Counted from the first letter of the whole stretch, positions 1,246 to 62,757 are shown. The stretch: DNA of 62,757 bases, filler included, from Sanchytrium tribonematis (GCA_018985235.1; 7 parts of 7 records of this genome joined end to end with filler, not necessarily neighbours in it); one strand, 5' to 3'. Notes: generated from the letters alone by a model not told the origin. A program made the numbers and translations.

Positions 1246-3916
1246 TTAGCTTAGTATGAATTTTGAAATCCCAAATAAGAGAATAAACACAATTATAAAC
1301 AAGGACGCAATTAAGTATTGTGTCATTGAAGTGCCCATATCGAGCCACGATCCCTCAGTTTTGATTTCAAAGAAGAATCTAATTGTTGTCAAATCCGAAA
1401 ATGCAATCGCTAGTAGATAAACGACAATTGGCTCAATTTTCCAGGATAGAGATATGGTGTATATGGTCAATGAAGACAAAATAAATGGAATAAGAATTTT
1501 GATCATCAGTAGAACACCCATCAGAAATGGGTCAAATTTTGTAGTAAATCGATATATCGATTCTAAAGAAAAGCTTCCAAAGCTTGCTATATTACCAATT
1601 GCAAAAAAACTTGCGTAGACTAACAATAACAAAAGCATTGCCAGTCTTAAATATAGTCTTGACTTGAGTGAAGAAGACTCACCTTTTTCTGAATAACTCT
1701 TTGATGCGTCTCGTTCAATTTGGAATAAGAAAAATAATGATAAAAATAGAGTGCCAAAGAATGCAGGCTCAAATTTTAAACTTAACAGTATGTAAATCGG
1801 CAAAAGACTTAAATAAATATTTAAGATTCTCTCTATCAAAGATACGTTACTTAATTTGCAAGACAATACAGTGATAATTGGAACTAGCAACGATAGCCAG
1901 CTAATGTATTTTTGATCTGAATTATTTGTTAAATATATTGAGATGAAAATGCAAACAAACTGGATTTTGGATATATTTTTACAGGAATTAGAAACCCTAA
2001 CAAACTTCATCGTAAAAACGCCACAAAGGCAAGCATAAATCGAGGACAAATTTCTATATTAAGAAAAATTACAAGTAATTTTGATCAATGTCGGATTGTA
2101 ATGGCAAAGTCGGAAATATTGAAAAAATTAAACATGCTCCGCAGAATATCGCAGTTTCTTTTTTTTGAGAGAACAGTAGCATCATAGGACCTAAGACGAG
2201 GTAAAAGTATGATATCGTGGTGCTATCTAAATACGATTGAGAAAGAGCAGCAACCCAAATTCCGCAAAATAAAATCTCCAAGAAATTCTTCAAGTCGAGT
2301 AGCTGCTTAATATTATGCCTCAAAGGTATCAAAATTGTCAGTAACGTCGCGATCAAAAGTATGTACATTGAAAATGACCAAGTTTCCGCTCTTAGACAAA
2401 TAAATAGAACAGTGACTGTCCAAAGAGTAATAGCAATATCTAAATCTTTATCACTGGCTTGTAGTTCTCCTATTGTGAGGTATTTCAATAACGTGCAGAG
2501 CATATAAATGATGTAGCCTGCGGTTATCAAAAGTTGAACTAGGCTTTTGTCATAGGTTTGATAATACTGTATTCCTTCCTTAACTGATTCTATCGATTGC
2601 AGCGTCTCAAAAATCGTTGAAGTTGTATTACTGGATAAAGAATGTGGTTTGAATTGCCAAAATCGAAGCCCAATACGTTTTTGTGTTTCCTTGTGAAGAT
2701 AAAGTGATTTCAATTGATTATAATTATCTATTAAAGCATTCAATCGTTTCTTTTTAGGAAGTAACTTGATAGGCACAACTCCCAAATTATTACTAGGAAC
2801 TGATGAGCCCAAAAGAATACCAATCAACGAAGCAATATCTATTTGATTTATACTTGTAGGTTGGGGAATGGATTTCGCAGTTATGTCATATTGTAATTTA
2901 TGGTCAAGAAGCCAACTTTCGTAAAAATCGAAATGTTTTTGCAATTCATGATCTGAATCAAAAATATCAGGTGAAATATTGCTACCCCAAATAACAAATG
3001 GTGTTTTAATGTTGTGTGGATCCGAGTCTCCATGAGAGCCTCTGTCAGACATGCCATGGTCAGCGGTATATATCCATGTAGTTTCATGATCTATTTTTTG
3101 AAATTCCTCGGCAGATTCTGTTGTACCATAAAATTCATTAAACAGTACCTCAATTTCTTCTAAATAAGCATCGACTTGTTTAACAGTATTTATATATTCC
3201 TTCGAATGTGGTCTGAAAGCATGACCAGCAGAATCAACCCCACAAAAATGAAAGAAAAACAGACTCTGGTGATACAGTTGAGTTTTTAAAGTCTCATTTG
3301 TCTCAGCTTTTTTGAATAAATTAAATACTCCATCGCGAACAAATTTGTTCATTTTCAAATAATCAGACTTGAAATCATATTCAGGGAATCCATCTATGTA
3401 GTGTTTATGATCTTGCCCTATCAAATGTCCATTAATAAGAGAAAGTTGCAAATGTGGTACATAGGTATGAGTAATTCCAAGATCACCAAAAAGATAAGCG
3501 TTAGTATTATTTAAAACGCAATCTACCTCTACTGGATTTTTGCTCCAACCACGAAGGACCGCACTGGGATCTTCTGTAATCCCACAAAAAATTGACATGT
3601 GCCCAGGTCTTGATTCTGTGGGTGCTTTACAAATACTGGTGCCATAGGCTCCTTTAAATATTTTAGAAAATACAAATGGCGAAATGATGTCACTTCCATT
3701 GTTAAAATGTGGATCATAGAATGTATCATGTCTCAAACCGTCTGCAATTGCCACTACAACTCTTTTTGATTGTTTGTTTTCTAACGGAATTGGCGGTATA
3801 TTGACAATGGGCGAAACGAAATAAATATCAAATATAGATAAAGCAAAAAGGATGTGGAGTATGATGCCAAGTGTGATCCATGACATGGAATTTGCCATCT
3901 TTAATAAATGATACAA
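1246..3916 (-). CDS. MCD4: GPI ethanolamine phosphate transferase 1 (PIG-N/Mcd4), 2 exons
   Basis: ADGLR, PTESRPGH, TADHGMSDRGSHG motifs and multi-TM C-terminus; ORFs joined in frame by intron 2054-2072; start may be 3898. Confidence 0.92.
2054..2072 (-). other. 19-nt spliceosomal intron (MCD4)
   Basis: gtaatttttcttaatatag; removal gives ...QNYLNLSSIY in frame. Confidence 0.85.
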
Positions 3917-4004
3917 AGGAGAAGCAACAAGAAATTAGCAAGTGCTTATGAGCTCGCAAAATCCAATTATTTAATAAGTTGACAATTGATTGCCCAAGAT
4001 AGAA

Positions 4005-4619
4005 TTAGTCTATTTTGAGGGATGCAACAATTTTGCTTTGAACATCTCCGAAATCAACCAATTTCGGCTCACCAAATACCTGAGTTTGAACGACTGATTG
4101 CAAAATTTGGGATTGGATGCCCAGGCTCAAGTCAAATACCATGTCGTTTATAACCAATTCACATTTGCCACTTTTTCGAACCTTGATTTCCCCTATGTGA
4201 CCATTTCCTTTCAATTTAGGAAGTGGTGGCATACTTAGGACATGAATTTGGTCAAAAAGGTCCTCAGAATTGGGATCATATCTATTAGTATTGTGTATCT
4301 TATGAAAATACTCCTTCAAAGGCATATCAGTCATCTCCAATTGTTTGTCAAATCTGAATTTAAGCAAGTCTATCTTTTCTTCCATCTTTGAGTCTTCTTG
4401 AAAATCCAATTTAACATCATCAATAGCCATTTGACTTTGAGAATAAACCTGTTTTTTATGATGCTTTTTATCTTCTAATTTTTTCATTCTATTTTCAAAT
4501 TCTTCTTTTCTATTCAATCGTTTTTCTTTCTGCTGCACACTAAGCTCTACATTTTCTACATTCCTTGGCTTAAATTTAGGTTTAAATTTAAATCCAGAAG
4601 GTGTATCTTCTGCAGTCAT
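4005..4619 (-). CDS. RPC53: RNA polymerase III subunit RPC4/RPC53-like
   Basis: N-terminal KFKPK; C-terminal GHIGEIKVRKSGKCELVINDMVFDLSLG. Confidence 0.75.
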   Translation of the reverse strand: MTAEDTPSGFKFKPKFKPRNVENVELSVQQKEKRLNRKEEFENRMKKLEDKKHHKKQVYSQSQMAIDDVKLDFQEDSKMEEKIDLLKFRFDKQLEMTDMPLKEYFHKIHNTNRYDPNSEDLFDQIHVLSMPPLPKLKGNGHIGEIKVRKSGKCELVINDMVFDLSLGIQSQILQSVVQTQVFGEPKLVDFGDVQSKIVASLKID

Positions 4620-4657
4620 TTATTTTGAAATGAATGCGTTCCCCTTTTTGACCAAAT

Positions 4658-11632: not shown

Positions 11633-13022
11633 TTAATTCAATTTACTTTTTGGACTAAAGCCACCAGCTAAGTTTGCAACAAATCTTAAGGCTTTCAAAA
11701 CCATTCCATTACCTTCAACAAAGCCTACAGACTTATATTCAACATTCAATTTTTTTGCCAAAGTTTGTAGCTGTTTTCTAACAGTTCGCAGCCTATTTCG
11801 AGGCAGCCTAGGAAACACATGATGCGTTGTTTGAAACTGAAGACCACCATGTAACCAGTCCAACCAGGGAGAACATTCAACATCCATCGTAGTTCTTAGC
11901 ATTCTGTGAATCATGCTTTCATAATCTGGGGTATTTGTGTCCATCGCAAAGTGAGAAAGCGTGATTTGGACATGTAAAAGTGCAGTCAATGCGTGACAAA
12001 TTAAGGTATATACTAATTTTGTCCATAATCCAGGAATAAATGTAAGTAGATAGAAATACCAGGTGCCGAAGAGTCCCATACAAACAACTTCCAGCTTTCG
12101 ATGTTTAATTTTATCTTTTGTTAAAATTCCAGCTAAAAATACTAAGCTTTGAACATACAAATTAAATCGAGCAAACATTAAAACAATGTAATAAATCTAT
12201 GTAAATCAGGATTACGTAATGTTGATACTGGACAACAAACTGAGAAAGCCTATCGAAGGTCAGCTTGCGACCGTGGAAACTGCTGTAAATTGAGTTAAAA
12301 AACTCCGTTGTAACAGCAAAGAAAGGCAAATGCTGGATATCTGGATCGTGGTGAGGATCATTTGTAATAATATGATGTATATTATGCGAGTGTTTCCACC
12401 ATCCCATCGAAATACCTCCAAACAAGTCACCAATCAAAATGCCTATGACGTAATCAACCGGTTTATGCGTAACTCCGTAATGCCCCAAGTCGTGTCCCAC
12501 AAAGGCAATTTGATGCCAAAAAAACCCAAGAGCAAAAGCCGATAATATGTAATACTCGCAATAAATTAAATACAATGAAAAAGCTGCAAGAGAAACACAT
12601 TTAACTAATTCTCGATAATAAAATGAATAGTCAGTATTGTAAAGTCCTGCTTGCAACAGTTCCTTGTGCATATCAATCACAGCCTCTCTTTGTTCAGTCA
12701 TTTTAGTATCAGTATGTAACAAATCCAGCTGGTCTTGGATTCTACCTCTTTCTGCTTTAGAGTAGTTACATTTTTTGTTCCAAACAATTGCATTTTTCTG
12801 CAAGATCCCTACAGAATAATGCTTAAGATAAGATAAGGTCTGCTCGGGATGTAAAGTCATAAAATAATCGGTCATATCTTGATATTTGCCATGTTCAAGA
12901 GCAAGTCTGCCACCAGGGTGCCTATGCTTGAAGTCACCTATATCAATAACATAAGGGCTTACAAAGAGCCATTCAGTTTCGAAATCCGTCGTATCCAGCT
13001 TTTCATCCCATCGAGCAGACAT
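11633..13022 (-). CDS. Cytochrome b5-fused front-end desaturase (delta-8 sphingolipid / delta-6 family), 2 exons
   Basis: HPGG; His boxes HDLGH, HNIHH, QTTHH; intron 12197-12215. Confidence 0.9.
12197..12215 (-). other. 19-nt intron (desaturase)
   Basis: gtaatcctgatttacatag; gives QYQHY|IYYIVLMFARFNLY. Confidence 0.9.
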
Positions 13023-13179: not shown

Positions 13180-14764
13180 TTATTCCACTAATTTTAATCC
13201 TTCATCTGCTTTCACAATTCGAATAGTGTTTGTCTTGCCAGATCCTCCAGCCCAGCCATGAATTACCAAAACTAGATCATTGACTTTTAAGAGCTTACGC
13301 TCGATGGCCGTGGCGATTGCTTTTTGGAGACGTTCGTCCACCTGATTCTGCCATTCCTCTCCCTTTAATGGCCTGTCTTTCGGCATCTCATGAAGAACAG
13401 GATAGCAACCTCTATACAGATGACATTGTCTGGCGGTTGAAGCAGACTTTGTTACAGTAATAATTGGAACCTGAGGTCTATATTTAGCAACCAGTCGAGC
13501 GGTTGTACCCGTAGTGGTCAAAACCACAATGGCGGACACTTGCTGCTCGATGCAAGCGTTTACTGCCGAGCTAGCTATAGTCTCTGACGTTTCCAACATC
13601 ACTTTTTGACAACTTTGAATAGCCAAAAATAATGGGGGATAACAGACTGAACTTTCACCCTCAACGCAGAGCTGGTGCATCATTTTCACAGATTCTACAG
13701 GAAACTTTCCTTTGGCTGTTTCACCGCTAAGCATAACACAATCAGCACCATCCAAAACAGCATTTGCTACATCGCTGCATTCAGCTCTAGTCGGTCTCGG
13801 AGAATTTGTCATAGATTCCAACATCTGTGTGGCACAAATGACTGGCTTTCCAATAATGTTACATTTGGCGATCATCATTTTTTGAGCAACAAAAACTTTC
13901 TCTAATGGAATTTCCATACCCAAATCACCTAAATAAATGTTAATTACCTCTTGCTACCATCACACCATCAGTGACACCTAAAATTGCATCAAAGTTTTTA
14001 ATTCCTTGCTGATTCTCGATTTTCGAAATGACTTTGACATGTTTTCCACCTTCAGAAAGTAAATCTTTGATTGCCATAACATCATCTGCTCTTCTAATAA
14101 ATGACGCAAACACCATATCAATTTCTTTTTCAATACCAAACTTGATATCAGATATATCTTTCTCACTTAAAGCAGGAAGTTCCACATTTGTACCCGGCAA
14201 ATTGACATTCTTTCTTGATGTCAATGTATGTGTGTTAAGTGCTTTTGCTTTGAGATTTAAATCATCTACTTTTGACAAAATTTCTAGCGATAAATTACCA
14301 TCTTCGATATAGACTAAACTCCCAGGTTGCATATGACTAATTCCTTTGTAATCGATATAAATTTGCTTTTCACTGCAGTCATCCTTAAATTTGGAATCAG
14401 TTGTTAAAATAATATCTTGTCCTTTTTCGACTGTATAAGTACCATCGTCCTTGACTAAACCAGTTCTAATTTCTGGACCTTTTGTATCTAATGCAATAGC
14501 AATAACAACTTTAGGTCGTTGCGCCCTTGCCTTTTTAACATTCTCAATGGTCTGACCATGAAAATCATGATCGCCATGACTGAAATTCAATCTAGCAATA
14601 TTCATTCCAGCATCAATTAAACTCAAAATAAACTCGACAGAATTATTTTTGCCAATTGTGCATACAATGGCCGTTTTTCTATAATTTCCCATGCCTTCCA
14701 TGACATTAATATTTGCTGTCCACTCAAGTCTAGTTGAAATAGTTCCCTCTCTGCGTTTAGACAT
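13180..14764 (-). CDS. PYK1: Pyruvate kinase, 2 exons
   Basis: RLNFSHG, DTKGPEIRTG, spliced MVARGDLG, ATQMLESM; likely start MSKRRE at 14764. Confidence 0.97.
13929..13947 (-). other. 19-nt intron (pyruvate kinase)
   Basis: gtaattaacatttatttag; restores the invariant MVARGDLGMEIP exactly. Confidence 0.97.
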
Positions 14765-18530: not shown

Positions 18531-19791
18531 ATGCTTGAAGTTTTACTATTTTCAATTTTAAATGGAATACTACTCATCCTAGTTCATTCGTTATCGTCAA
18601 AGAGACTTACAAATTCAGAATTGATCTTTCAAATTTTAACAGTTGCTTATACGATATCAATGGGGTTATATTTTGATTATGCAGACGCATGGTTGTCAGC
18701 ACTATCAATTTCAATTTTATTCGTTCCAGCAATAGCGATGATTAAATTAGGATATGTTGAATACCAACTACAAAATAGATATCACGAAAAAATGAAGTCG
18801 ATTACAAACGATTTATTTGAAATTAAGAAAAAGAATGAGTTTGCAGAAAATGACTTGGATCATCCGGTATTATATGTATCTAAAGTGATTCAATCAAATA
18901 ATGTGGTAGCTTTTAAAGCATCTTCACTTCTTAAATGGTCAGGCTCATTTATTTTGGTTTTACTCATAATTTTATTTAATGCTCCCTTTAGCGACAAGAG
19001 AAGTCAACATTTTGATTTTGAAAAGATTCTTGCTATCTACTCTGCTAGTGTTCTACTCTCGCTAATATTTCTATTCAAGACAATTAAAAAGAAGCAATTT
19101 GATTCACTTAAAAGGTCTCATTTTTTAATTACTGAAGTGTTTTTAGAATTGCTAATTTTCATTGCAATTATTTGTTTGTATGCTCTGAAATTAGATGGAT
19201 TGCGACTTCTCACATTGGGACACTTGACAATACATCACTTTGGAATATTTATGTTTTATATTCGGAATTTTCCACGTAAAAATGCCAACAGGCAAACACA
19301 GAAATATGAAGAGTTTGAATCATTGCTAGCAGACACCATCATGTACACCAAATTTAGACTTTATTGCTCCAGAATGAGAGATGAAAGAAAAATAATATTT
19401 CTGGAAGCGTACAAAGAATGTGAAAGCATGGCTTCTATCAATATAATGAAAGGATGTTCTTCATTTGCTGTTGCCTTGTCAGGCTTAGAATTGGCTCCAA
19501 AATCAAGCTCACTTGAGAGCATGAAGCAATCTGAGAAAAGAGTACAAAGACTTCACAACGCAACGTATGAAATTTATCAGCTTTTTCTCGACGAAGGCAA
19601 TTGACATTAATTTAGGGTCGCCTTACTTATTACGTGATGTTTCCACTAAAGAGATTAGTCTTGTTCGACAGAATCGCGAAACTTTAGATTTTACTTCTTT
19701 AAATCCAATTTATATTGAAGTTTGCAAATATTTGTATATCTGGCATTATGACAATTTTTTAGACCAGCAAGATTCGGAAGAGTATAATTAA
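18531..19791 (+). CDS. Multi-pass membrane protein with C-terminal RGS domain, 2 exons
   Basis: About 6-7 hydrophobic helices, then FESLL...KFRLYC...IIFL...IYQLFLDEGSPY; GC-AG intron 19597-19615. Confidence 0.65.
19597..19615 (+). other. 19-nt GC-AG intron
   Basis: gcaattgacattaatttag; joins FLDEG|SPYLL in frame. Confidence 0.8.
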
Positions 19792-21715: not shown

Positions 21716-23870
21716 ATGGACAACTATGCGGTCCATCTCACAGACCATAATAATAATTCTTTAGATGAAGAAAGCGCGAAGGAAGAGATTGAAGCATTGG
21801 GATATGATTTCAAAGGAAATATTGCGAATTTAGATGGATATTATTTAATAGGTAAACCGCTACACAAAAGAGATTTGGATGACGCTACAGTAGAATCTGA
21901 GCTGTCTGATTCTAATAGAGTCAAATGGTTTGAAAAGCAGATTGGTAAAAAAAGAGAACACAGAGGAATGATGAATTTTAATGACGAGTTTTATTTGTCG
22001 AGTTGGCACTTGAACAAAGAGTTTGCCCCTCCCAATTTTCTGGGAACAGCCATAGATATGAATGTGGAACCAGTTTGGCAAAATTTTAAGCTTCATGGAA
22101 ATGGAATTAGATTAACTGTTGTTGATGATGGCATTGACTATAACCACTCTGATTTAAAACATTCATATGACGAGAGTGCTTCTAGGGATATTTTGATGAA
22201 TGTTGCAGACATAAAACCAAAAAATGAACTTTTGGACCATCACGGCACAAGATGTGCTGCAGAAATTGTTGGAATGCCAGGTAATAAAAAATGCGGAGTT
22301 GGGGTAGCATTCAATGCCAAATTAAGTGGTGTTACGATAATAGGAGATAAATATCCCACAGATTCAGACGAAGCAACTGCTTTTAAATATCATTTTGAGA
22401 CTCAAGATATATTTTCAATGTCTTGGGGGCCTAGTGACGATGGAACTCAAGTCGATGGTCCAGGAAGATTAGCTAGTCTTGCTTTAAAAGATGCGGTAGA
22501 AAAGGGGAGAAATGGGAAGGGCCTGATTTTTGTAATTGCTGCAGGAAATGGGGGCCAAACTATGGATAATTGCAATTACGATGGATATGTAAATTCCATA
22601 TATACAATTTCTATTGGAGCGGTAGATATCGCTGGTAAAAGGCCCTGGTATGGAGAAGAGTGTTCAGCTATCCATGTTGTTTTACCAGGTGGTGATCAAA
22701 CTAACCCCATTTATACATCAGACATTAATGAAAAGTGCACAAATGGACATTACGGTACCTCAGCAGCGGCGCCTCTAGCTTCAGGTGCTATAGCCTTGCT
22801 ATTAGAATATAGACCGGATTTATCTTGGAGAGATGTTCAATATCTTTTACTTTCAAGCACAATTAAAAACGATGACACCGACACTGAGTGGGTTAAAAAT
22901 GGTGCAAATATCTGGACTCATCCCAAATAGTATTTACAATTTATTTAGTGGGTTCGGTTTGCTGGATACCAATTACTTGATCAATAATGCTAAAAATTAT
23001 AATGTTTTGCGAGAGCAGCATTCATTTTCATTTTCCAACTCTACCCAAATCAAATTAGGACGATCTGCTATACCGTTGTTGATAGAAGTTAGAAATGTTT
23101 TAGGCATTCAGTCAATTGAACATGTGCAAGTGAAAATTGAAATTATCCATCCTAGAAGAGGCCAATTATCTTACTCATTAACTTCGCCTTCTGGTTTCAC
23201 ATCTCAGCTTGCTAAGCCTAGAATCAATGATAAGTCGGAACAGGGTCTCCCAAACTGGACATTTATGACTAATAGGCATTGGAAAGAGCCCCCCAATGGT
23301 GTCTGGACACTAAGTATTATTGATGAGGGAACTGGTGAAATAGCCAGTGATATATTAGATAGCAAAGAGGGTTTTCAAAGAAGTGCTGGTTACATCAAGG
23401 AATGGGAGCTAATATTATACGGTGAATGTGTTGACAAATATTGTGAGCAGCCCCAAATCCAAACGCCAGATGCCGCAAATTGGTTAGCTTTTGGGATTAC
23501 AGTCGCCATTTTTATATTAGTGGGATTTTCGGCTTTATTTTATTTTAAATATTTCAAGCATAGAAATCAAAATAAAAAGTATGCAGAAGTCGTTAAAAGC
23601 ATTAGTTCACATAACTTGAAAATACTTGATGAGGAAGACCAGATCAAATCTTCACCAATTGAAGTGCCAAAAGATTATCCTTTTAAAAAGCAGCAGAGTA
23701 GTAGCGCATTACCAAGATCGATTTCTACTGACAGTTTGAATACAAGGGAAAAGCGAGGTTATGTCACTGATGTCCCCATTTCACCACTGTCTCCCCTAAG
23801 TCGATCAGCCTCGGGAAACATTAGAAGAGATAACGAAAATCTACTAAAGCAATCTTTGAAAAATAAATAA
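21716..23870 (+). CDS. KEX2: Kexin/furin-like proprotein convertase, 2 exons
   Basis: VVDDG, HGTRCAAEI, GTSAAAP, P domain, TM segment; intron 22930-22948. Confidence 0.93.
22930..22948 (+). other. 19-nt intron (kexin)
   Basis: gtatttacaatttatttag; restores HPKYGFGLLD. Confidence 0.95.
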
Positions 23871-28230: not shown

Positions 28231-28281
28231 TTTTGCCACTGTTTGAAAAACTTTTAATTTTCATAATTTTCAGCCTAAGAA

Positions 28282-35775: not shown

Positions 35776-35817
35776 ATTTCCCACAAATTTAAAATCAAAC
35801 TTTTGTGGCTTGTTTTA

Positions 35818-37305: not shown

Positions 37306-37343
37306 GAAACAATAAATTCTAAATATAATTTAATAACTTCGTA

Positions 37344-37365
37344 CAAGAAATTTCGAAATTTCTTG
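37344..37365. promoter_or_regulatory. Perfect 22-bp palindrome with two GAAnnTTC dyads upstream of CCT3
   Basis: caagaaatttcgaaatttcttg, ending 17 bp before the ATG. Confidence 0.5.
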
Positions 37366-37382
37366 GTTAGAAACTCGGAGAA

Positions 37383-41012: not shown

Positions 41013-42825
41013 TTAATACGGTCGTATTGCTCTTGGCTGGTAAGCTCGATTTCCTCTACTACGTGGACGTGCTCCTCTTGAATACGAACGATTTGGGGTA
41101 TAATTGCCAGTAGGATTTAATTCTTTGGTTGGATAGGACCCATCTTGACGATTCCATGACAAATTTTGTTTTGAGTTGTTAGATTTGAGATATTCTTTGG
41201 ACGTAGGTGTTTGTGATGGAAATGGTTTTCCAACGATTTTTAGACTTCCTCTTCCTCGCCCACGACCTCTTCCACCTCGCCCTCTTCCTCTGCCCCTCAT
41301 TGAGGGAGCAAATTGATTTGCAAAGTCTTTCAAGCCGACATCTTTTCGTCGTTTCATTTGATCGGCCTCCCTCTGAAGAGTGTTTTCATCATTTCCAGCT
41401 TCTTCGGGTGTGATGGCATCATGTTTTAATAAATTTAATCTTTGATACAAACTATATTTACCATTTTTGATAAGATCTGTGTCAAGATCAACATGTGAAT
41501 TGTTACTCTTGCTAATCATATGTAATTTCATTTTTTGAATCTCTTTGTCGTCTTCCTGATTTTGTTTTAAATAGCCAACTAGAAACCCTACTTGAAAGGC
41601 TTTAGTTAAGCTGTCATTCCCACTTAATTAAATAAAGTTACCTATATGCAGAATTTTCGATATTTTCCGTAATGTTCACATAAGATGCAATATCCAGTTC
41701 GGCAGCTGTAAGAAGTCGCTTTGTTTGATTCTCGCTCAATTTTAAATTATCCCTGTTATAAACCTCCGCAGCTTGCCATGAATTTTGAAATAAGCCAAGT
41801 TTTCCAGATTCCTTAAATTCATCATAGGCGGAAATATTAATTTCATTCGATTCTCCTGTTGCGTACGGCAACACGGCACCAGCAAATTTGAGGTAAAAGT
41901 TACTCACCTTTTTAGCAGTAGTTTCATCGCATTGTCCAAGAATCCTTGAATTAAAAGGATTGAAAACATGACTATCATTATTAAGAGGCTCAGTCCTAAG
42001 CAACCCATTATTTTTCCTAATATGAGGTGCGTTGAATCCAAATCTATTCTCGATCTGGTTTTCAGTTTGATGCCATTGAAAATCGACTTTAAGTTGTTTT
42101 TCTTCAATTTGCTGAAAGTTGGTCTCACAGTAAACTGCATATAATCGAAGCAAATGATTTCTATGAGACACGCCCAAATTGCTGTGAATATATTCTTTGA
42201 TGTCGCTTATTTTAAAATATGACAAATCTGTTAGCCATGTTTGAAATGACTCTGGCAACTCGATAAATAAATCATTAAATAGACAAGCAATCTCATTAGT
42301 TCCGTTGTAAGTGAATATCTTGGGGGTATCCGAGGAGCCAAGTATCCCAATAATTTGAGTAAATAAGCCTTGTATTCCAACTCGACCGTGTTCTTTTAAA
42401 CCAGGGTAATATCTAAGGCCATAAAGAACATGGAGATTTAAATCCATGCCCATTTTTTGCAGATATTCTCTATTTTTGCCATTGACAATAGTCTTTTCAC
42501 TAGGGTGTAATCGAAATAGATAATTTGATACTTCAAATGTATCGTCAACTTTTTTCCAAAAGGACACAGTCCAATTGTAAATGCAGGCATATGTGGCAAT
42601 GTATTTTAATGCTATATATTTTGCGTCTCTATCGTCTTTTGAATGAAATTTTGCTGGTTGGCCAAATGTGGAATAGTCGGTTTTCATTACACAATAATCG
42701 CATTCTTTAGCAGATTGTTGAATTATGCTACAAATTTCATCCCCCCAATTTCGACTATCTATGACTGTGTAAGGGATTTCCTTAAAAGGTTGCATGGCTT
42801 TACTCTTTTTCACAAATGAAATCAT
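41013..42825 (-). CDS. Divergent CAF1-family (TOE1/PARN-like) protein with RG-rich tail, 2 exons
   Basis: IPYTVIDSRNW...DYCVMKTDYSTFG and YLQKMGMDLN resemble TOE1/PARN; ORFs joined in frame by intron 41623-41641. Confidence 0.55.
41623..41641 (-). other. 19-nt intron (CAF1-like gene)
   Basis: gtaactttatttaattaag; links SAYS|GNDS into the downstream RG-rich ORF with no stops. Confidence 0.8.
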
Positions 42826-43015: not shown

Positions 43016-43926
43016 ATGGTTGAGAAAAAATCTTTGAATTGGACAAATTTAGCCGTTGGTGGATTTATACAAATAATGGAAGTCTCCACATTAGGCCAGC
43101 CATTTGAAGTTTTAAAAACTCACATGGCTGCTAATCGTGGAGATAACTTACGAACAGCCATAAAAAAGACATATCAAAGAGGAGGAGTTTTTGGTTATTG
43201 GCAAGGACTCATTCCCTGGGCTTGGATTGAGGCCGGAACAAAAGGCGCTGTGCTTCTATTTGCTTCTTATGAGGTGGAGTCATTTTTACAAACTTTTGGT
43301 GTTAATAAAACTGCAGCCTCGATGACAGGGGGTGCAGTGGGTGGTATTGCTCAAGCATATACAACTATGGGATTTTGCACATTTATGAAAACTGTAGAAG
43401 TAACGAGACATAAAGATGGTCGTGGAACGTTGGAAATTGCGGCTCAAGTTTGGAAAAAAGAAGGATGGAAAGGGATGAATAAAGGCGTTAGTGCAGTCGC
43501 GCTTAGACAGATGACCAATTGGGGTAGCAGATTTGGAATCTCAAGATTTGTTGAATCGGTTATGAAAGGTGAGCAAAAGGACAGGAAGCTATCAAGACCA
43601 GAAAAAATTCTTTCAAGTGCGATCGGAGGTGCTTTGGCATGTTGGAATCAACCCTTTGAAGTTATCAGAGTGGAAATGCAGAGTCAATCTAAGGACCCAT
43701 CCTTAAAAAATTATGGATTTACGGCAACTGCAAAAGATATATATCAAAAAAATGGTATATGGGGATTTTATAGAGGCGTAACTCCTCGTGTTTGTCTTGG
43801 CGTTTATCTTACTATATGCATGGTAGTCCAATTTTAATTTAGGTTTTTGGAGGCGATGAAGCCAAAGCGAAAATTGCAGAGTGGCAAAAGTCCAAAAAAG
43901 AAGCAGAATCTAAGAAAGTGATTTAA
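43016..43926 (+). CDS. YHM2: Mitochondrial citrate/oxoglutarate carrier Yhm2, 2 exons
   Basis: EVSTLGQPFEVLKT, QGLIPWAWIEA, RQMTNWGSR. Confidence 0.9.
43823..43842 (+). other. 20-nt intron (YHM2)
   Basis: gtagtccaattttaatttag; gives TICMVFGGDEAK; a 17-nt alternative donor at 43826 is also in frame. Confidence 0.8.
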
Positions 43927-45357
43927 TAAAATTGCAATATTAATGCATACCAAATTATTGTGGATAACGCACTCCCTGTGTTTTCTGTAGTTTCAGTTGA
44001 AAGTTGTTGTAATTTAGGAATAACGCTTTTGTTCTTCTTCACGTCAAACACAGGTTGCTGAGTCATATTACCAACGTACATTTTAATATAATTCAATTGG
44101 CCTTCCATATATCTCGCATGTTCTGGATTCATGCCTAACTTTTTGTAATCTTTATCAGTAATATTATTATTTACAGCTACAAAAGAGTCATTTCCAAAAT
44201 AATTTCCAATATAAGAGACTGAGTAATTCCACTTGTCGTCTGCTGTAATGTTACTGATTGAATAAATATCGTGCAATCCTTCGAAGACTTCCACTTTGAC
44301 CTTTTCGTGTAATTGCTCAACTTCAATTTCTTCGATTTCTTCAATATCCTCAAAAGATTCTGTGGAAGTCGCCTCTGCTTCTGATTCTTCAACGTCAACA
44401 GTAGGCATTGGCGCAATAGGCAAATCAATAACTTCGCTTGTGCTATTTCCAACAGTGACGTTTGTTATATCGCCAGTTTCATTATCATCTCTTTTATAAA
44501 CTCGATGACTTTGCATTTTCGGCATCATCTTTGCGCTAGGAAATGTGCCTTCATATTTAACGCACCTATTTTTCATCAGAAGTACGTCAATTATTTTGGT
44601 ATTGAAGATAGGGAGTGGCGCATTTTTCCACCAAGGTGTAAATCGCTGCGCAGTCCATATATCGTGAACATATTGGTATAGAGATAATAAAAAGTCGACA
44701 AAGGCATGATGGAAATAAAATGATGCATCATTGTTACCTAAATAAATTAAAAGTACTGTAGCTAACGCCCATATCACCACCAAAATGCATGTGTAACAAA
44801 ACATGAGGACCATTTTCCAACAACTTTGAGAAATACTCAATTCCATAAGGTGTAGCAATAATGCTTGCAATGGTGCTAGTACCAGAAGGCAAAATATCCT
44901 TTCTATATCTTCTTGAAATGCAGTGCTTAAATGGATATCCTACAGTATTATATTCAAATACACCACCTTTAACACAACCATTTCTATCAACTGTACCTAA
45001 ATACTCGTCTGTAAATAAATTGTTTTTGTCGAAATTCCATTTTAATTTATCGCTGTCTTTGGCCCAATTCCAATATGGCAAAGTCACAGTTTTATCAATT
45101 TTTATCATTTCATTTTCAAAATTATATAGAAACTCTCTATGCCAATATAAAAAATACATATTATTGTGAAATCTACTGAAAAATTTGCTATGCATTTCCG
45201 AATATTTTCGCATAATGCCTCTTTCTTTCATAACATTGAAAACTTTCTTCACTTTTTGCCATTCTGGTTTTGACAAAGATCTAATCTCTTTTCTTATTCT
45301 AGGATTAGAGCACCCTACTTTGACTTGAGCAATTAAAATAACGATCAACAGTAACAT
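43923..45357 (-). CDS. Secreted tyrosinase (type-3 copper), possibly GPI-anchored, 2 exons
   Basis: Signal peptide; RIRKEIR, H...FLYWHR, LPYWNW, PHVLLH, spliced SNNDASFYFHHAFVD; hydrophobic C-terminus. Confidence 0.88.
44738..44756 (-). other. 19-nt intron (tyrosinase)
   Basis: gtacttttaatttatttag; restores CuB-site spacing. Confidence 0.92.
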
Positions 45358-45974: not shown

Positions 45975-48009
45975 TTAATATCTGAGTCCTAATTCCTTAT
46001 TGATTTGTCGTAATCTTTCTTTCAAGTAAGCGACGTTGTCAAGTTTATCTTGCAGTTGTTTAATTTCGTTTTCAATTGAAGTTTCTTCCTCTTCAGTGCC
46101 AATTTTGTTAAATTGCCAAGTTTTTTGGTCCCCTACCAGATTCAATAAATGTCCATGATATTTAAATAGTGCAGGTCTATGACTGACAGTGATCAAAGTC
46201 ATGCCCTTGTCCTTCAAAGTTTTATAGATCAGACCTTCAACATCTGAACTGACTGCAGAACTACATTCATCTAAAATAACATACTTTGGAAGATGGTAAA
46301 ACAAACGGCAAAGGTTCACTCTCTGCTTTTCTCCTCCACTAAAAACATCTTTCCAATCTTTGATGGTATCAAACCCGCCTTCTCTATTCTCCAAATAGCC
46401 TAAATGAACTAAATCTAGAATTTCTTGCAGATCAGAATCTGTCACACCTTTTTCAATCATATCTTCCTTGCTATGTGGATATATCAATTGATCCCTCAAT
46501 GAACCTATACTTAGATAAGCGCGCTGAGGGATATACATGATAGTATTTTTAGACGGTCTCCTTAATTCACCTTCAAATAATGGCCATAATTGACGAATAA
46601 CCCTAACAATTGAGGTTTTCCCACTACCATTTGGCCTAAGTCAAATCAAATTACCCTGTAATAAGTGTATGTTCACCCGGTTGGACTCTAAAGGATAAAT
46701 TTTCTAAAATCAATTCTCCTCCCTTTCCAGATGAACTAGGTATTACAATTTGTGCATTTTTAAATTCAAATCCATCGGCATCAAACGAAATTAATCCCTT
46801 GGCATTTGCATTTAAATATTGCTCATCCTGGTGTTTTGGATCAATATTATAAACCCCTTCATGAAGTTCATGAAGAACTTGGTAAGCAGTAAAAATTCGC
46901 TGTAAATAACCTCCGACCTCCAGCATGTCTTTGTAAGCATACATGATACGTCCTCCAGCATCTCCTAAACTCAGCATTAATCTCTTAGCAATAACAAATT
47001 GACTACTAGCACTTCCGATCTCGTCTTCATCGTCATGTGAAGGTGTCTTTCCGGCATATTCTTGAAAAAATACAGGTATACCACAAACAAGGAGTGCTGC
47101 TGCACTCCATTCGTACTTGACAAATATATCCTCGACCATGTTGTACGGGCCCTTGTATTTTAAAATTTTATGAATGTGTCTCTGCAATTTGTCATACGCT
47201 TGATTCAGCATAGATTGCTCAATTTTCTCACCATCATAAAAACAGATTTCTTCTGCATTCGTTATCAACCTAGTGTGAGCAGCACGATAGGAGCCCTCAA
47301 GATGAGCTTGCTGAGCTGCTAATTTTCCAAATGAAGGTGAAATATATCTTAAAACTCGAGCTGTGACCATGTAATTCAAGAATAAACCAATGGTACCAGT
47401 ATTTCCAATAGTATTTTTTAATTGCCAGCTAAATAATATCATGTCTAGAACTGGTTTACAAAGATTTGAATATAAGCTTGTGATTGCATCACAAAATTTT
47501 GCGATATCTGTTGTTAGATACTGATCAATGCTTTCAATGCGATTGTCAAAGTTCCCAATTTTGTAAAAGGAAAGGTTGTCGTCGAGGTATACTTTTAGTG
47601 CGTAGTTTGTTAAATTCAAACGCATTCCCATGCTTAATCTAGATTGCAAGAATTTAATTTTTGCATTAGTGTAACTGCAGGGAACAGCCAAGGCACACCA
47701 AATGAATAGAGAATATAAAAATTGGCTTAATTTTCCTTTCACTAACGATTTCACAATTTTTCCATCCAGCCTAGTTATAACAAGACTCAACCATGTTCTC
47801 AGTATTAAAAATAATGAATGTAAACTCAGAGTGTAGATATCTTGTTTATGTAACGCAATTTTTAATAAATTGAGCAATTGCTTGTAAGAAGTTAATTTTT
47901 TGTTCAAAAACAACGACGATTTCAATTTAGGATCTAAATCTCTTTTGAATCTTACTAAAGAAGCCAGTGCTAGAACGCCAACAGCAATAGTGGAGTTTCT
48001 TACCGACAT
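45975..48009 (-). CDS. PXA1: Peroxisomal ABCD half-transporter (Pxa1-like), 2 exons
   Basis: NAEEICFYDG, spliced Walker A GPNGSGKT, YIPQRAY, FSGGEKQR, LDECSSAVS. Confidence 0.9.
46636..46654 (-). other. 19-nt intron (ABCD)
   Basis: gtaatttgatttgacttag; restores LITGPNGSGKT. Confidence 0.97.
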
Positions 48010-49447: not shown

Positions 49448-49566
49448 GATTTGTTTTAAAAATTTAACTACTTAAGTTTATAAAGTAATACAATAACTAA
49501 ATTAGTTTAGGTATTTCGAAGCGAAAATTTTATAACTTATCTGGAAAGTAGGAGACGGTCAATCTT

Positions 49567-51449: not shown

Positions 51450-52647
51450 TGAAAAGGTACATGGGCTAGGGAAAAAATGAAAATTTGGCTACATTACTTT
51501 ATATTACCAGTCCTTGAAAATGATCGTTCATTTCAATCAACTTTGGAGAAGGATAAGTACACAAGCTTGATATTGCTTCAAATGGGCTCGAAGTAATAAT
51601 AAATTTTGTATTGGGAAGTAATTCAGAAAGTTTTGCAAGTTTGGATATAAAGATATTATACATATCATCCGGAAACAATTCCAGCTCTTTAAGGGAATCT
51701 TCATGAACAAATGGGCCATTAAAAATAGCATAATCGGGTTTCTTTGATGCAATTTCTTGAATAGCTGAGTCAAAAGCAATCAATCCTCGAGAGTTTCCAA
51801 ATGGGCCAGAAGCAATGGAAACTATATTATTCGTTGGAGACTCGGGAAAATTTTTGTACATGGGAATCTTTGGATGTAAAATACTTTTGACTTGAAAAGA
51901 TCTTCCAGAAGTGTTTTTGCCAATTAAACCACAAATCTGACCACTAAATATTGAATCTGCAAATTTCCAGAAAGATAGGTCGGCTTTCAAATCCATAAAT
52001 TCTAAGGAACAAACCCCTCTACCCAGATCAGAAGGACATATCAGGCAGGCTTGCTTCTCTTTAGATTGCGGAGTGTCATCATTGATATCGTCTGTAGCAG
52101 GTAAAATTAATATTCTTCCAAATGTGAGGACATCTTCTTGAGATATCGAGTCTACAGGTGCGAGCTCAATTTCAAAATTATTGTCTTTCGCTTTCTTTGA
52201 AAATACATTTTCAAAATCTAAATAAGCGTTATCTAATTCCTCTGCAAACATTTCTCGGTCAGAATCAGCTGTGATAAAAAAAGCTTTATACAGTTCTACT
52301 TCATCGATGGGTGCCGTCAGTGTCCCAGGAATTCTGCTTTCAGAATAGTCTATTTCACCCAACCGGTAAATAACCTCACCTCGATTGACTGAAGAAACAT
52401 GACCTTCACTTGACATTCCGCTTATAAGAAGTGAAATCCCACCAGAAGATATATCTTTAGGTGGGTTATTTTGTGGTTTTTTTCGTTTAATTTGATTATA
52501 CAATATTGTTCTGAAAGATTGAAGCCTAGAATCGGTAAGCTCACTGACATTTATGCCATTATTCAAAGCATATGACTGCCAAGTAGCATCAAATTCGTCT
52601 CTTGTAATGCCTAAATTTTGGCAACATTCTTGAATTGCAATTTCCAT
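51450..52647 (-). CDS. POL12: DNA polymerase alpha subunit B (3' truncated), at least 2 exons
   Basis: SQEDV..FGRI, SIFSGQI..LIGKNTSG, ASGPF, NGPFV; spliced LPNFHFFPSPCTF. Confidence 0.8.
51489..51507 (-). other. 19-nt intron (POL12)
   Basis: gtaatataaagtaatgtag. Confidence 0.82.
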
Positions 52648-55068: not shown

Positions 55069-56494
55069 ATGTTGTCCTCCTTGAAATTAAAAATGTCACT
55101 GGTACAAATTCAAAAATTAACTAAACCGAGTTTGGTCATCTGCGCAAAACAAAATGTTGAGTTGCTCTCATCGTACTTACAAAAACCAATTCCAGAAATA
55201 AAGGTCAATCAAGTAGAGATTATAAACGAGCAAAAAGTGGTTTTATTTGATAACAAATTATCCAGAAATCTGGGTCTCTTCAGGGTTGATCAATTTGAAA
55301 AACAACTTGGACATGTCGGTGAAAACAAAGAAGTTCTTGTGGTTGTCCCTAATAGATCTTGGTTGGCTCCGACAGCAATATCTGTTGCCAGATATTTTCC
55401 AAAATTTACTAGAAAGACAGACAAGAAATCTCAGGAAATGATCAACTTAGACATTGCTGTAGTGGAGAATGGTAAATATGAACTTTTATCTCAGTCAAGT
55501 CAAAAAGAATCAATTTCAAACTACATTGAATCTACTCAATTAGCCGCAGAGCTTGTGGATACACCACCAAACGAACTGTATACTACCTCTTATGTGGAAA
55601 GAGTGAGGGATCTTTTCAAGGGTTTACCGGTAGAAATCAACGAAATTATGGGCGAAACTCTAAAAGAAAAAGGATACGGTGGACTTTGGAATGTTGGCAA
55701 AGCTGCTGTTTATCCACCAGTGCTACTCACTATTTCTTACAAAGGAAATAAATCTTCAGAAGATAGTGTTGCTCTTGTTGGAAAAGGAATTGTGTATGAC
55801 GCAGGTAATATTATATAATTTAGGCGGTCTTTCTATAAAAGGAACTGCAAATATGTGTTCTATGAAAAGCGACATGGGTGGATCTGCTGCTTGTGTTGGT
55901 GCCTTGCTCAATATTGTCAAATCTAAAGTCCCAAAAAATGTACATGCTGTTCTCTGTTTGGCTGAAAATGCCGTCGATTCTCATAGTTATAAAAATGATG
56001 ATGTATTCACATTGTATAGCGGAAAAACTGTCGAAATTAATAACACTGATGCTGAAGGGAGACTAGTTTTAGCTGATGGAGTTGCACACGCTAGTAAGAA
56101 CTTGAAGGCCAATGTAATTGTGGACATCGCCACTTTGACTGGAGCGCAAATGGTGGCCACAGGAATGAATCATGCTGGTTTATTGTCTAATGAAGCAGAA
56201 CTGGAGGCTCATTTTATAGAGGCAGGAAAAGCTGTTGGAGAACTTCTTCATCCTTTATTATATTGCCCAGAGCTTTTGATGTCTGAATTTGATTCAAAAA
56301 TTGCAGACTTTAAAAATAGCGTTAAAGACAGAATGAACGCGTCCAGTTCTTGTGCTGGTCATTTCGTTGAGTCCAACATAGTCGGAAGTTCAAGATGGGT
56401 GCATTTAGATATCGCTGGACCTTCTTTCAAAAGTGACCGTGGTACTGGATTTGGTAGTGCACTTTTATTTCAAGCGGTCTCTACTTTGAAATAA
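55069..56494 (+). CDS. M17 leucyl aminopeptidase, NPEPL1-like, 2 exons
   Basis: Spliced VGKGIVYDAGGLSIK, MKSDMGG, NTDAEGRL, KNSVKDR. Confidence 0.92.
55805..55823 (+). other. 19-nt intron (aminopeptidase)
   Basis: gtaatattatataatttag; restores YDAGGLSIK. Confidence 0.96.
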
Positions 56495-61225: not shown

Positions 61226-61263
61226 AATTTACAACAAATTTACTAGCAAAGCCATTAAAATCA
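61226..61263. repeat. 38-bp direct repeat, copy 1 (copy 2 at 62568-62605)
   Basis: aatttacaaca(a/t)atttactagcaaagccattaaaatca, one mismatch. Confidence 0.9.
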
Positions 61264-62451
61264 AATGACCATTGAAGTAGGCAAATAGCTGCTTGATTTG
61301 CTCACTAATGTGCCAGCAGGAGGGAGCGAGGCTGCACTCTCAGGGGATCCATCAGATGGTCCATCAGTTTGCTGCTCATTTGGACTGCCAGGATTATTTC
61401 CATGATGCTCAGAAGTACTCCATGTTTTACTTGTCATTTTCGAGATGGTTTTTGAGTAGCTATGAGAATGCCATGTCGTTGAGACGCTCTGGGATTGACT
61501 GAGTACTGTTACACTGCTGTACTTGCTAGTGCTTGATTGAAACCCCCACTTTTTTGCAGTAGTAGTTTGATGGCAATGCTCAGAAGACCATCCATGGCAT
61601 TCTAAGCCATGGCACACATAGACACCTGTCACTGTGATATTTTTCAACTCACTATATTGTGCAAATCGGTAATTTATATAAGTGGCATTTTCATATTCTA
61701 ATCTCACGCCATTTTTAAGCTGATTTAAAGTCACAATGTACAATCCGCCCTTGTCATCTGTCACATCAACTCCCCAAAAAGATGTGTCATACACCTCATA
61801 TTCCTCTGCTGTAAATTGACCGTCTTCCACTGTCAAAAATACACGCGTATTTTGAGGATTTCCAGTTAATGGAGATCCGTCTTGAGTCAAATTGGCTGTA
61901 AATTTACTTGTATAATCAATTTCAATTTCTGTCTGTTTCTCTCTACATTCTACATTGGAATAATCAAACTCGTCGAAATAAGTAGAATCACAAACACGGA
62001 AACCTTGACAAGAATCCAAATCAGTCTTTCCTGGTTGACAAATTTCGAGTCTGGATACTTTTAGATTGGGTGTATATGTCGAATTCGAAGAATTGAAGTG
62101 TACATTTAAATAATAAGCGGAAAATGTTAATTCTGTTAAATTCACGCGAATGCCCGATTTCAAGTCTTCAATGGTCGGTAACGGGTCAAAGTCAGAGCAA
62201 TCTGCTCCACAAAGTTGAAATTGAAGCACGTCAATGCTGGAGTCACTTGTCACGTCCAAATATAAATCATATTCTCCATCAGCAATATAATTTGGGTTGT
62301 GTTTCTTGTCTTCAAAGAAATAACTAATAGAAGATTGACTAAACTTTGTAATGAGTTCACTGTTGACAATGATTGGATTCGTCTCACAATTTGATAGAGC
62401 AACAAAATCGGAATTGGATTTTTGGCCCAAGACTAGGAAATGGAAGAACAT
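61261..62451 (-). CDS. Secreted Cys-containing protein with Ser/Thr-rich tail
   Basis: Short N-terminal hydrophobic stretch; two similar internal units (LKSGIRVN / LKNGVRLE). Confidence 0.6.
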   Translation of the reverse strand: MFFHFLVLGQKSNSDFVALSNCETNPIIVNSELITKFSQSSISYFFEDKKHNPNYIADGEYDLYLDVTSDSSIDVLQFQLCGADCSDFDPLPTIEDLKSGIRVNLTELTFSAYYLNVHFNSSNSTYTPNLKVSRLEICQPGKTDLDSCQGFRVCDSTYFDEFDYSNVECREKQTEIEIDYTSKFTANLTQDGSPLTGNPQNTRVFLTVEDGQFTAEEYEVYDTSFWGVDVTDDKGGLYIVTLNQLKNGVRLEYENATYINYRFAQYSELKNITVTGVYVCHGLECHGWSSEHCHQTTTAKKWGFQSSTSKYSSVTVLSQSQSVSTTWHSHSYSKTISKMTSKTWSTSEHHGNNPGSPNEQQTDGPSDGSPESAASLPPAGTLVSKSSSYLPTSMVI

Positions 62452-62570
62452 TTTGAGAAAAGAGAAGTGGCGTGTTTAAATAGAATCACGCTACAGATAT
62501 TAACCAATCAAGTGATATTCTGAGTATGGGCTGGTACAAGATACTAAAAATAGAAGCAAAAGTTTCGAAT

Positions 62571-62757
62571 TTACAACATATTTACTAGCAAAGCCATTAA
62601 AATCATTTCCAAATAGCCACTTGCATTTGTAGTTTGTGTTGCCAATGCTGATTTAATCTCATCTGTGTGTGAAGATGCCCATTCTAATACTTTTGGATCT
62701 ACAGTGTATGCGACAGTCTTGGTGCTAGTTACATTCTAAATAAATATAAATGACCAT
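62571..62757 (-). CDS. 3' end of a probable GPI-anchored surface protein (partial)
   Basis: Hand translation NVTSTKTVAY...TTNASGYLEMILMALLVNML*, preceded by candidate intron 62736-62754. Confidence 0.55.
62736..62754 (-). other. Candidate 19-nt intron
   Basis: gtcatttatatttatttag fits the 3' consensus; upstream exon lies almost entirely outside the window. Confidence 0.55.

What the first reader, a model, noticed from the sequence alone, without database searches (positions are those of the whole stretch)
2054..62754. Near fixed-length 19-nt (rarely 20-nt) spliceosomal introns throughout a fungal nuclear genome
Seen: 16 introns on six of the seven contigs. The 19-nt ones are 2054-2072, 12197-12215, 13929-13947, 19597-19615, 22930-22948, 27310-27328, 30959-30977, 38263-38281, 41623-41641, 44738-44756, 46636-46654, 51489-51507, 55805-55823 and 62736-62754 (tentative). 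The 20-nt ones are 25860-25879 and 43823-43842. Several restore invariant motifs to the residue (PK MVARGDLG, MCM GDPGVAKSQ, ABC GPNGSGKT, CCT3 GVSDLAQH, LAP YDAGGL, kexin KYGFG). I found no longer intron and at most one per gene. Known: introns this small occur in chlorarachniophyte nucleomorphs (about 18-21 nt) and heterotrich ciliates (15-16 nt); typical fungal introns are much longer, and microsporidian ones are generally somewhat longer. Inference: an independent origin of a ruler-like miniature splicing system in a gene-rich zoosporic fungus. Default gene finders would misannotate these genes as split or pseudogenised. I cannot check whether this has already been reported for this organism.
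Basis: partly seen in the sequence, partly recalled or inferred. Interest (0 to 1): 0.93.

Follow-up and report, generated by a model that had tools for sequence, protein, structure and literature searches.

The report
Nineteen-base introns in sanchytrid fungi
In this sanchytrid (a member of a group of fungi that parasitise algae), at least fourteen genes are each interrupted by a 19- or 20-base piece with intron-type ends, and cutting it out in the computer restores one unbroken protein; these pieces are likely the shortest typical spliceosomal introns known in fungi, although no RNA was available to show the splicing itself.

Summary
Confirmed. All 16 segments are present: 14 of 19 nt and 2 of 20 nt; 15 GT-AG, 1 GC-AG; all 16 have T at -8, A at -6 and a pyrimidine at -5. 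Removal gives one stop-free frame in all 14 complete genes, gap-free against 117/117 PK, 118/119 CCT3 and 36/36 desaturase homologues. The organism is a sanchytrid: CCT3 groups 100/100 with Amoeboradix gromovi (86% identical). The CCT3 intron sits at the same codon and phase as 34-63-nt introns in 8 of 70 other loci, so it is likely an old intron that shrank. Read-through tails of relatives' mis-called proteins decode to 19 nt (unnamed sanchytrid CCT3, 15/15 residues) and 20 nt (A. gromovi desaturase, 6/6). Best reading: U2-type introns with the branch point fused to the 3' end, converging on Stentor's layout. Not shown: splicing (no RNA holder listed), lariats, snRNAs, genome-wide absence of longer introns. 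Five paper searches naming sanchytrids, or tiny introns in fungi, found no report; subscription journals were not searchable. The scan had no earlier sanchytrid note, only 26-30-nt introns in Rozella. New variant of a known kind.

The parts
2054..2072 (-). 19-nt GT-AG intron, phase 2, PigN/MCD4 (877 aa joined)
   Evidence: Pfam PigN halves 1-189 and 200-456; A. gromovi MCD4 listed as two ORFs on one contig
12197..12215 (-). 19-nt GT-AG intron, phase 0, cytochrome-b5 fatty-acid desaturase (456 aa)
   Evidence: 36 of 36 homologues tested cross the junction without a gap; the A. gromovi orthologue decodes to a 20-nt intron at the same site
13929..13947 (-). 19-nt GT-AG intron, phase 1, pyruvate kinase (521 aa)
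   Evidence: 117 of 117 spanning homologues gap-free; P0003 and P0004 break at the same codon, P0002 is continuous
19597..19615 (+). 19-nt GC-AG intron, phase 1, membrane protein with weak RGS-like C-terminus (413 aa)
   Evidence: frame restored; leave-one-out score 12.4; RGS match weak, E 0.084; no homologue across the junction
22930..22948 (+). 19-nt GT-AG intron, phase 2, kexin-like protease (711 aa)
   Evidence: S8 domain upstream, P-domain downstream; frame and motif restored
25860..25879 (-). 20-nt GT-AG intron, phase 2, RGS-domain protein (181 aa)
   Evidence: RGS profile 5-73 of 117 ends at the break; exon 2 alone has no Pfam hit; present without gaps in run X1
27310..27328 (-). 19-nt GT-AG intron, phase 2, MCM5 (633 aa), inside the Walker A motif
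   Evidence: Pfam MCM halves meet at profile position 70|70; present in X1
30959..30977 (+). 19-nt GT-AG intron, phase 1, enoyl-CoA hydratase (265 aa)
   Evidence: Pfam ECH_1 halves 4-84 and 83-251; present in X1
38263..38281 (+). 19-nt GT-AG intron, phase 1, CCT3 (545 aa); position shared with other fungi
   Evidence: Pfam 263|263; 118 of 119 spanning homologues gap-free; same site holds 34-63-nt introns in 8 of 70 loci; P0243 decodes to 19 nt; A. gromovi continuous
41623..41641 (-). 19-nt GT-AG intron (ends AAG), phase 2, CAF1-family ribonuclease (597 aa)
   Evidence: frame restored; leave-one-out score 11.0; no homologue across the junction
43823..43842 (+). 20-nt GT-AG intron, phase 0, mitochondrial carrier (296 aa)
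   Evidence: carrier repeat match 6-75 of 96 ends just before the break; frame restored
44738..44756 (-). 19-nt GT-AG intron, phase 1, tyrosinase (485 aa)
   Evidence: Pfam halves 7-193 and 193-212
46636..46654 (-). 19-nt GT-AG intron, phase 2, ABCD transporter (671 aa), at the Walker A motif
   Evidence: exon 2 starts at ABC_tran profile position 19; both A. gromovi ABCD genes listed as two ORFs each
51489..51507 (-). 19-nt GT-AG intron, phase 0, DNA polymerase alpha B subunit; exon 2 cut by the contig end
   Evidence: lowest leave-one-out score, 9.5
55805..55823 (+). 19-nt GT-AG intron, phase 1, M17 leucine aminopeptidase (468 aa)
   Evidence: Pfam M17 halves 2-92 and 86-309; frame restored
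62736..62754 (-). tentative 19-nt GT-AG intron before a 54-codon frame; only 3 bases of upstream sequence in the window
   Evidence: motif fits, leave-one-out score 16.9; context; no homologue

Best explanation
The segments are 19-20-base GT/GC...AG insertions whose removal restores conserved proteins, and they are most likely major-class (U2-type) spliceosomal introns that shrank in the sanchytrid lineage. Inferred mechanism: the 5' site (GUAAU) and a branch motif (yUnAy, with the predicted branch A six bases from the end) are separated by only about two free bases. The branch point is fused to the 3' AG with no polypyrimidine tract, so the first step would give a 14-base (15-base) lariat loop with a 5-base tail, and the AG would be chosen by its fixed distance from the branch A. 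The extra base of the 20-nt forms lies between the 5' site and the branch motif. Length would be bounded below by room for U6 and U2 pairing and above by compaction or by loss of factors for distant 3' sites. Slu7 and Prp18, which yeast does not need at short branch-to-AG distances, are not annotated in A. gromovi. Shown: anatomy, frame restoration, shared position, 19/20-nt length in relatives. Inferred: splicing, the branch A, the distance rule, factor loss.
For: Ends and motif; T-8/A-6/Y-5 in 16 of 16, against 25 of 337 GT-N15-AG segments in the window, a count that includes the listed ones. Gap-free junctions. CCT3 position shared with 34-63-nt GT-AG introns in 8 of 70 loci, which fall among ascomycete-side fungi in the tree. 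Relatives: P0243 (83-85% identical to the window and to A. gromovi) decodes to 19 nt with 15 of 15 exon-2 residues, next best 4 of 17; A. gromovi P0294 decodes to 20 nt with 6 of 6, next best 2 (window controls gave 19 nt). Exact presence/absence among sanchytrids (A. gromovi CCT3 and P0002 PK continuous) is the pattern expected of precise intron loss. A. gromovi annotation lists PRP8, SF3B1, U1-70K, U2AF35, U2AF65, an SF1-like KH protein, BRR2, PRP22, ISY1, DBR1, YJU2/CCDC94 and CWC25. Stentor's branch A is also at -6. Slu7/Prp18 are not needed below 7-9 nt in yeast; SLU7 and PRP18 have 0 hits by KEGG id, KOG id and name in the stored supplement.
Against: No transcript of this organism was seen, so excision and its efficiency are unshown; microsporidian short introns are spliced at under 20%. 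No snRNA lies in the window and no whole genome was held. The spliceosome inventory is of a relative, from an eggNOG table that annotates only about half of the proteins and was cut when stored, so missing Slu7/Prp18 is weak; C. merolae lacks both despite long branch-to-AG distances. +5 is T, not the G that pairs with canonical U6 ACAGAGA (recalled). Several frame-compatible longer GT-AG alternatives exist at the same breaks; they are excluded by homology only where homologues were aligned. P0002 could be a transcript contig rather than an intronless gene. P0242 fits 20 nt but its length is not fixed; lengths for P0003 and P0004 cannot be decoded.
Confidence: 0.88

Rival explanations
1. They are true tiny spliceosomal introns but only the short mode of a broader distribution; longer introns exist elsewhere in the genome and no distance rule operates.
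For: Only 62 kb were examined. Microsporidia mix ~25-nt introns with a 76-nt class. One 21-nt candidate lies at 49485-49505 upstream of an Aha1-like gene. Matrix hits at other lengths exist, about 0.3-0.5 per length.
Against: All 14 complete interrupted genes are mended by 19 or 20 nt. The longer frame-joining hits reuse a listed site, join separate genes or fall inside open frames (read from the coordinates, not all tested with homologues). Both decodable introns in relatives are 19 or 20 nt.
Confidence: 0.25
2. The segments are removed or skipped without the spliceosome, by Ire1/tRNA-type cutting and ligation or by ribosomal bypassing.
For: Fungal HAC1 introns of about 19-20 nt are cut by Ire1 (recalled; the paper asked for was not held). 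No RNA evidence here.
Against: 0 of 15 testable introns have a CNG^CNG junction. All have GT/GC-AG ends and a branch motif, occur in all three phases, and the CCT3 one sits at a position held by ordinary GT-AG introns in other fungi.
Confidence: 0.03
3. Assembly or amplification artefacts, or pseudogene frameshifts.
For: Run X1 may be the window's own sample, so its agreement is not independent (tool note).
Against: X1's separately assembled contigs carry four of the introns with no gaps at depth about 170-200. Other species break at the same codons with decodable 19/20-nt inserts. The 14 genes have no other stop or shift and include CCT3, MCM5 and PK.
Confidence: 0.01
4. Recent insertions of one intron-making mobile element (introner).
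For: The 19-nt segments share 10-17 of 19 positions pairwise, mean 13.2; the window holds a retroelement.
Against: All 14 differ, and the shared letters are mostly the splice signals in an AT-rich background; junction repeats are only 0-4 bases. The CCT3 position is shared with distant fungi and two introns are shared across sanchytrids.
Confidence: 0.04

Closest known systems
Stentor coeruleus 15-16-nt introns (Nuadthaisong et al. 2022, PMC9505925; section 2.1 and passages read)
   Same: Two-length distribution, GUAAU-type 5' end, AU-rich, branch A at -6 with a 5-nt tail, mostly one intron per gene in a minority of genes.
   Different: Ciliate; 15/16 nt with a 10-11-nt loop, against 19/20 nt with a predicted 14-15-nt loop; Stentor's branch region has no strong consensus whereas here T at -8 is invariant; Stentor introns are 5'-biased, here none of 14 lies in the first third of the coding sequence; Stentor is free-living.
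Mikrocytid 16-17-nt introns (PMC10245619; abstract and passages read)
   Same: Parasite, narrow length (217 of 224 at 16 nt), conserved sequence.
   Different: Rhizarian; strongly reduced spliceosome (17-19 proteins); no introns in metabolic or transporter genes, whereas here PK, ECH, LAP, ABCD and a carrier have them; RNA-verified there.
Chlorarachniophyte nucleomorph 18-21-nt introns (as described in PMC10245619, passage; primary paper not read)
   Same: Nearly the same length.
   Different: Relic endosymbiont nucleus, about 800 introns in 300 genes; here a main nucleus with at most one intron per gene in the window.
Microsporidian and rozellid short introns (Whelan et al., PMC6349667; passages read)
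   Same: Closest relatives with short GT-AG introns: E. cuniculi ~25 nt, R. allomycis ~30 nt in S23.
   Different: Longer, few, often 5'-biased in ribosomal protein genes, poorly spliced, with a separate long class; a different branch of Holomycota.
Myxobolid and dicyemid ultra-short introns (PMC13644364; parts 1-2 of 3 read)
   Same: Opisthokont parasites; conserved intron positions shrunk; U2AF kept.
   Different: Median 22-27 nt with a spread, weak signals and a branch position that moves with length; here fixed at -6.

Membership tests
U2-type spliceosomal intron | GT (or GC) ... AG ends | tested here: met
   15 GT-AG, 1 GC-AG
U2-type spliceosomal intron | branch-point motif near the 3' end (yUnAy; consensus recalled) | tested here: met
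   T-8, A-6, Y-5 in 16 of 16; full motif in 14 of 16; sequence level only
U2-type spliceosomal intron | removal restores a conserved reading frame exactly | tested here: met
   14 of 14 complete genes stop-free; gap-free in 117/117, 118/119 and 36/36 homologues
U2-type spliceosomal intron | position homologous to ordinary introns of other eukaryotes | tested here: met
   CCT3 only: 8 of 70 loci; the other 15 positions were not tested outside sanchytrids
U2-type spliceosomal intron | excised from mRNA through a lariat | not testable with these tools
   no RNA run was available to lay
U2-type spliceosomal intron | genome encodes snRNAs and core spliceosomal proteins | tested here: inconclusive
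   core proteins annotated in the relative A. gromovi; no snRNA in the window; own genome not held
Tiny fixed-length intron systems (Stentor, mikrocytid, nucleomorph type) | all or nearly all introns within 1-3 bases of one length under 22 nt | tested here: inconclusive
   16 of 16 in the window and 2 of 2 decodable in relatives are 19-20 nt; genome-wide not testable
U12-type intron | GTATCCTT/ATATCCTT 5' end and TCCTTAAC branch site (motifs recalled) | tested here: not met
   none of the 16 sequences printed has them
Ire1-spliced HAC1/XBP1 intron | CNG^CNG at both cut sites (motif recalled) | tested here: not met
   0 of 15 testable
Introner element | near-identical copies at new positions with target-site repeats | tested here: not met
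   14 distinct 19-mers, junction repeats 0-4 bases, shared CCT3 position

The most novel reading that the evidence does not exclude
The whole phylum Sanchytriomycota runs a ruler-like spliceosome that handles only 19-20-nt introns with a fixed -6 branch point and has shed the distance-dependent second-step factors Slu7 and Prp18: the shortest intron system in opisthokonts, reached by shrinking ancestral introns, independently of ciliates, mikrocytids and nucleomorphs, and hidden so far because the published sanchytrid proteomes were called without an intron model.
Probability: 0.4. Interest if true: 0.88.

Novelty: new variant of a known kind. Interest (0 to 1): 0.78.

Why it matters
Introns under about 22 nt with almost no length spread were reported, in the papers I read, only for heterotrich ciliates, mikrocytids and nucleomorphs. 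A case in fungi puts the minimal-intron problem in the same kingdom as yeast, where the spliceosome is best understood, and where orthologous introns of normal size exist at the same position for comparison. The match to Stentor's -6 branch point suggests a physical floor on how U6, U2 and the 3' site can be packed, testable by placing these introns in yeast reporters. Practically, sanchytrid proteomes called with TransDecoder on contigs contain split and truncated genes (shown here for A. gromovi), which can inflate protein counts and bias gene-loss and phylogenomic inferences for this phylum.

Tried and rejected
No whole genome was held, so no genome-wide histogram or snRNA search. Sequencing-run search: one DNA holder, no RNA holder listed; this is no evidence on expression. 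A second read-laying gave no result, so only 4 of the 16 introns were checked against X1. The metagenome scan returned 80 CCT3 loci at 55-66% identity, none sanchytrid-like, from 23 of 64 parts of the collection. Rfam: 0 matches in the window. Raw GT-AG length counts and frame-joining without a donor filter do not show the 19-nt peak. Pfam scans of the short second exons at 19618, 25715, 43843 and 62574 gave no supporting family. Same-frame ORF pairs at 1245/1246, 8428/8429 and 35775/35776 were inspected for stop-codon reassignment and read as gene boundaries or retroelement decay; all 14 joined genes read through under the standard code. Tails of P0003, P0004 and P0247 end too early to give a length. 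Paper searches with no report of these introns. The HAC1 paper was not held.


Full report
The observation. The window is seven contigs joined by N-linkers, 35% G+C and densely coding. Aligned from the 3' end, all 16 have T at -8, A at -6 and a pyrimidine at -5; from the 5' end 15 have A at +3 and 15 have T at +5. Fourteen lie in genes whose two ends are in the window, and in each the removal gives a single stop-free frame. Pfam matches to the two halves meet at the break in CCT3 (263|263), MCM5 (70|70), tyrosinase (193|193), ECH (84|83), PK, LAP and PigN. Where homologues were at hand the joined junction aligned without a gap in 117 of 117 spanning PK proteins (119 given), 118 of 119 CCT3 proteins (120 given) and 36 of 36 desaturases (the first 36 non-sanchytrid hits of 149).

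Chance. Raw GT..AG segments show no excess at 19 nt, and joining frames is not by itself selective. With a generic G[TC]A..YAG filter, 19 nt gives 10 frame-joining hits and no other length from 10 to 120 more than 4. A splice-site matrix, which carries no length information, trained on half of the introns finds 4 and 7 held-out 19-nt hits against 0.27 and 0.5 per other length. The scan found no further strong 19- or 20-nt intron in a gene and no 18- or 21-nt segment at score 14, so in-frame forms were not simply overlooked. Six members are weaker: 62736 and 51489 at contig ends, and 19597, 25860, 41623 and 43823 without a homologue across the junction.

The organism. CCT3 exon 1 is 86% identical to Amoeboradix gromovi (EukProt) and 68% or less to every other named hit in that search; the two group at 100/100 on a long branch. 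PK and desaturase are neighbours in both, and MCM5 and CCT3 share a contig in both. The window is therefore a sanchytrid other than A. gromovi; the species is not fixed by my calls. Unnamed ENA proteins add further close lineages. The single-gene tree does not place sanchytrids within fungi; for that I rely on Galindo et al. 2021 (PMC8371127; sections 6 and 18, passages and supplement searches read), which makes them a phylum of algal parasites, sister to Blastocladiomycota, with 10.5-11.2-Mb genomes.

Other genomes. Of 80 CCT3 loci from metagenomes, 70 show both flanking motifs; 8 of these carry a GT-AG intron of 34-63 nt at exactly the window's codon and phase, and 62 are continuous (many may be transcripts). 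The eight fall on the ascomycete side of the tree, and a chytrid-like protein also stops at this site (P0247). The window's 19-nt piece is thus most likely an old intron that shrank. Gene callers that ignore introns read into the intron and on into exon 2 in a shifted frame, and that tail fixes the length. P0243 decodes to 19 nt with 15 of 15 exon-2 residues (next best 4 of 17); A. gromovi desaturase P0294 decodes to 20 nt with 6 of 6 (next best 2), at the site where the window has 19; the window's own tails return 19 as controls. P0242 fits 20 nt without fixing it; PK proteins P0003 and P0004 break at the window's codon but stop too soon to decode. A. gromovi CCT3 and PK protein P0002 are continuous. 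Run X1's contigs carry four of the introns without gaps, though X1 may be the window's own sample.

How it likely works. The anatomy is GUAAU, about two free bases, a yUnAy motif, then three bases and AG. The predicted branch A is at position 14 of 19 or 15 of 20, always six from the end, as in Stentor. I infer major-class splicing with a fused branch point and 3' site, a 14-15-base lariat loop and AG choice by distance. The A. gromovi annotation lists PRP8, SF3B1, U1-70K, both U2AF subunits, an SF1-like protein, BRR2, PRP22, ISY1, CWC25, YJU2 and DBR1, but no SLU7 or PRP18 by KEGG id, KOG id or name. Reviews state that these two factors are not needed in yeast below 7-9 nt between branch and AG (PMC10158995, PMC3392075; passages). 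This fits but is weak: only about half of the proteins are annotated, the file was cut when stored, and C. merolae lacks both factors with long distances. Splicing itself, its efficiency, the branch nucleotide and the snRNAs are all unshown. I put U2-type introns at 0.88, and the fuller ruler-and-factor-loss picture for the phylum at about 0.4.

What is known. Tiny narrow-length introns are described for Stentor (15-16 nt), mikrocytids (16-17 nt) and nucleomorphs (18-21 nt). In opisthokonts I found E. cuniculi at about 25 nt, Rozella at about 30 nt and myxozoans at a median of 22-27 nt. A survey of 644 fungal genomes (PMC8476143; passages) gave no such case in the passages shown. In the sanchytrid genome paper 'intron' occurs once, in a reference title, and 'splic' not at all; ORFs were called with TransDecoder on contigs; nine supplementary files showed no discussion of introns, one scanned PDF could not be searched and one spreadsheet was cut. 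Searches pairing sanchytrid, Sanchytrium, Amoeboradix or Sanchytriomycota with intron or splic listed 2, 8, 6 and 4 papers; I searched the text of two of them and saw the others only as listings, none about this. Most subscription journals are outside the library, so a prior mention cannot be excluded. The scan's own notes hold nothing on sanchytrids and mention 26-30-nt introns in Rozella, which I did not check.

Verdict. The feature is real and shared across sanchytrids. It works like the tiny-intron systems of Stentor and mikrocytids and meets every sequence-level test for U2-type introns; the RNA-level tests could not be run. It is a new variant of a known kind, apparently the first under 22 nt in fungi. 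Interest 0.78.

Noticed in passing
window, 14 complete intron-bearing genes: The intron lies at 0.37-0.91 of the coding length in all 14; none is in the first third, the opposite of the 5' bias reported for Stentor and microsporidia. By simple arithmetic 0.63^14 is about 0.002 under a uniform model; the motif scan found no missed 5' introns, but short first exons are harder to see.
   Followed up: partly
window:49485-49505 +: 21-nt GT-AG segment, matrix score 13.3, in the spacer upstream of an Aha1-like gene; possible untranslated-region intron or chance (A instead of a pyrimidine at -5).
   Followed up: partly
window:6435-10615 -: Reverse-transcriptase element, probably a non-LTR retrotransposon (RVT_1 at 7325-8428), in several pieces; its contig is the only one without an intron.
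   Followed up: no
L066:2622-2658 and L074:3947-3983: Two related fungal loci on the ascomycete side of the tree carry a 34-nt intron at the CCT3 site, another short-intron lineage.
   Followed up: no
P0002-P0004, P0242, P0243 (ENA): Unnamed sanchytrid-like lineages in public assemblies. They share a one-residue deletion near the PK N-terminus and a two-residue deletion in CCT3 that could serve as markers.
   Followed up: partly
window:11633-14764 and 26310-39039: Gene neighbourhoods conserved with A. gromovi: desaturase beside PK, and MCM5 on the same contig as CCT3.
   Followed up: partly
window:25000-39900: Run X1 differs from the window at 18 single-base places, none inside an intron, and breaks into small contigs at 28885-29962; heterozygosity, strain difference or a repeat.
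   Followed up: no
A. gromovi annotation (PMC8371127, supplement file 4): PigN/MCD4 and both ABCD transporters are each listed as two ORFs on one contig, as expected if they carry uncalled introns; SLU7 and PRP18 are not listed.
   Followed up: partly
window:31471-34018: Very tight packing: the Rrp6-like gene ends at 33393 and a zinc-finger gene on the other strand ends at 33395; many spacers are under 100 bases.
   Followed up: no
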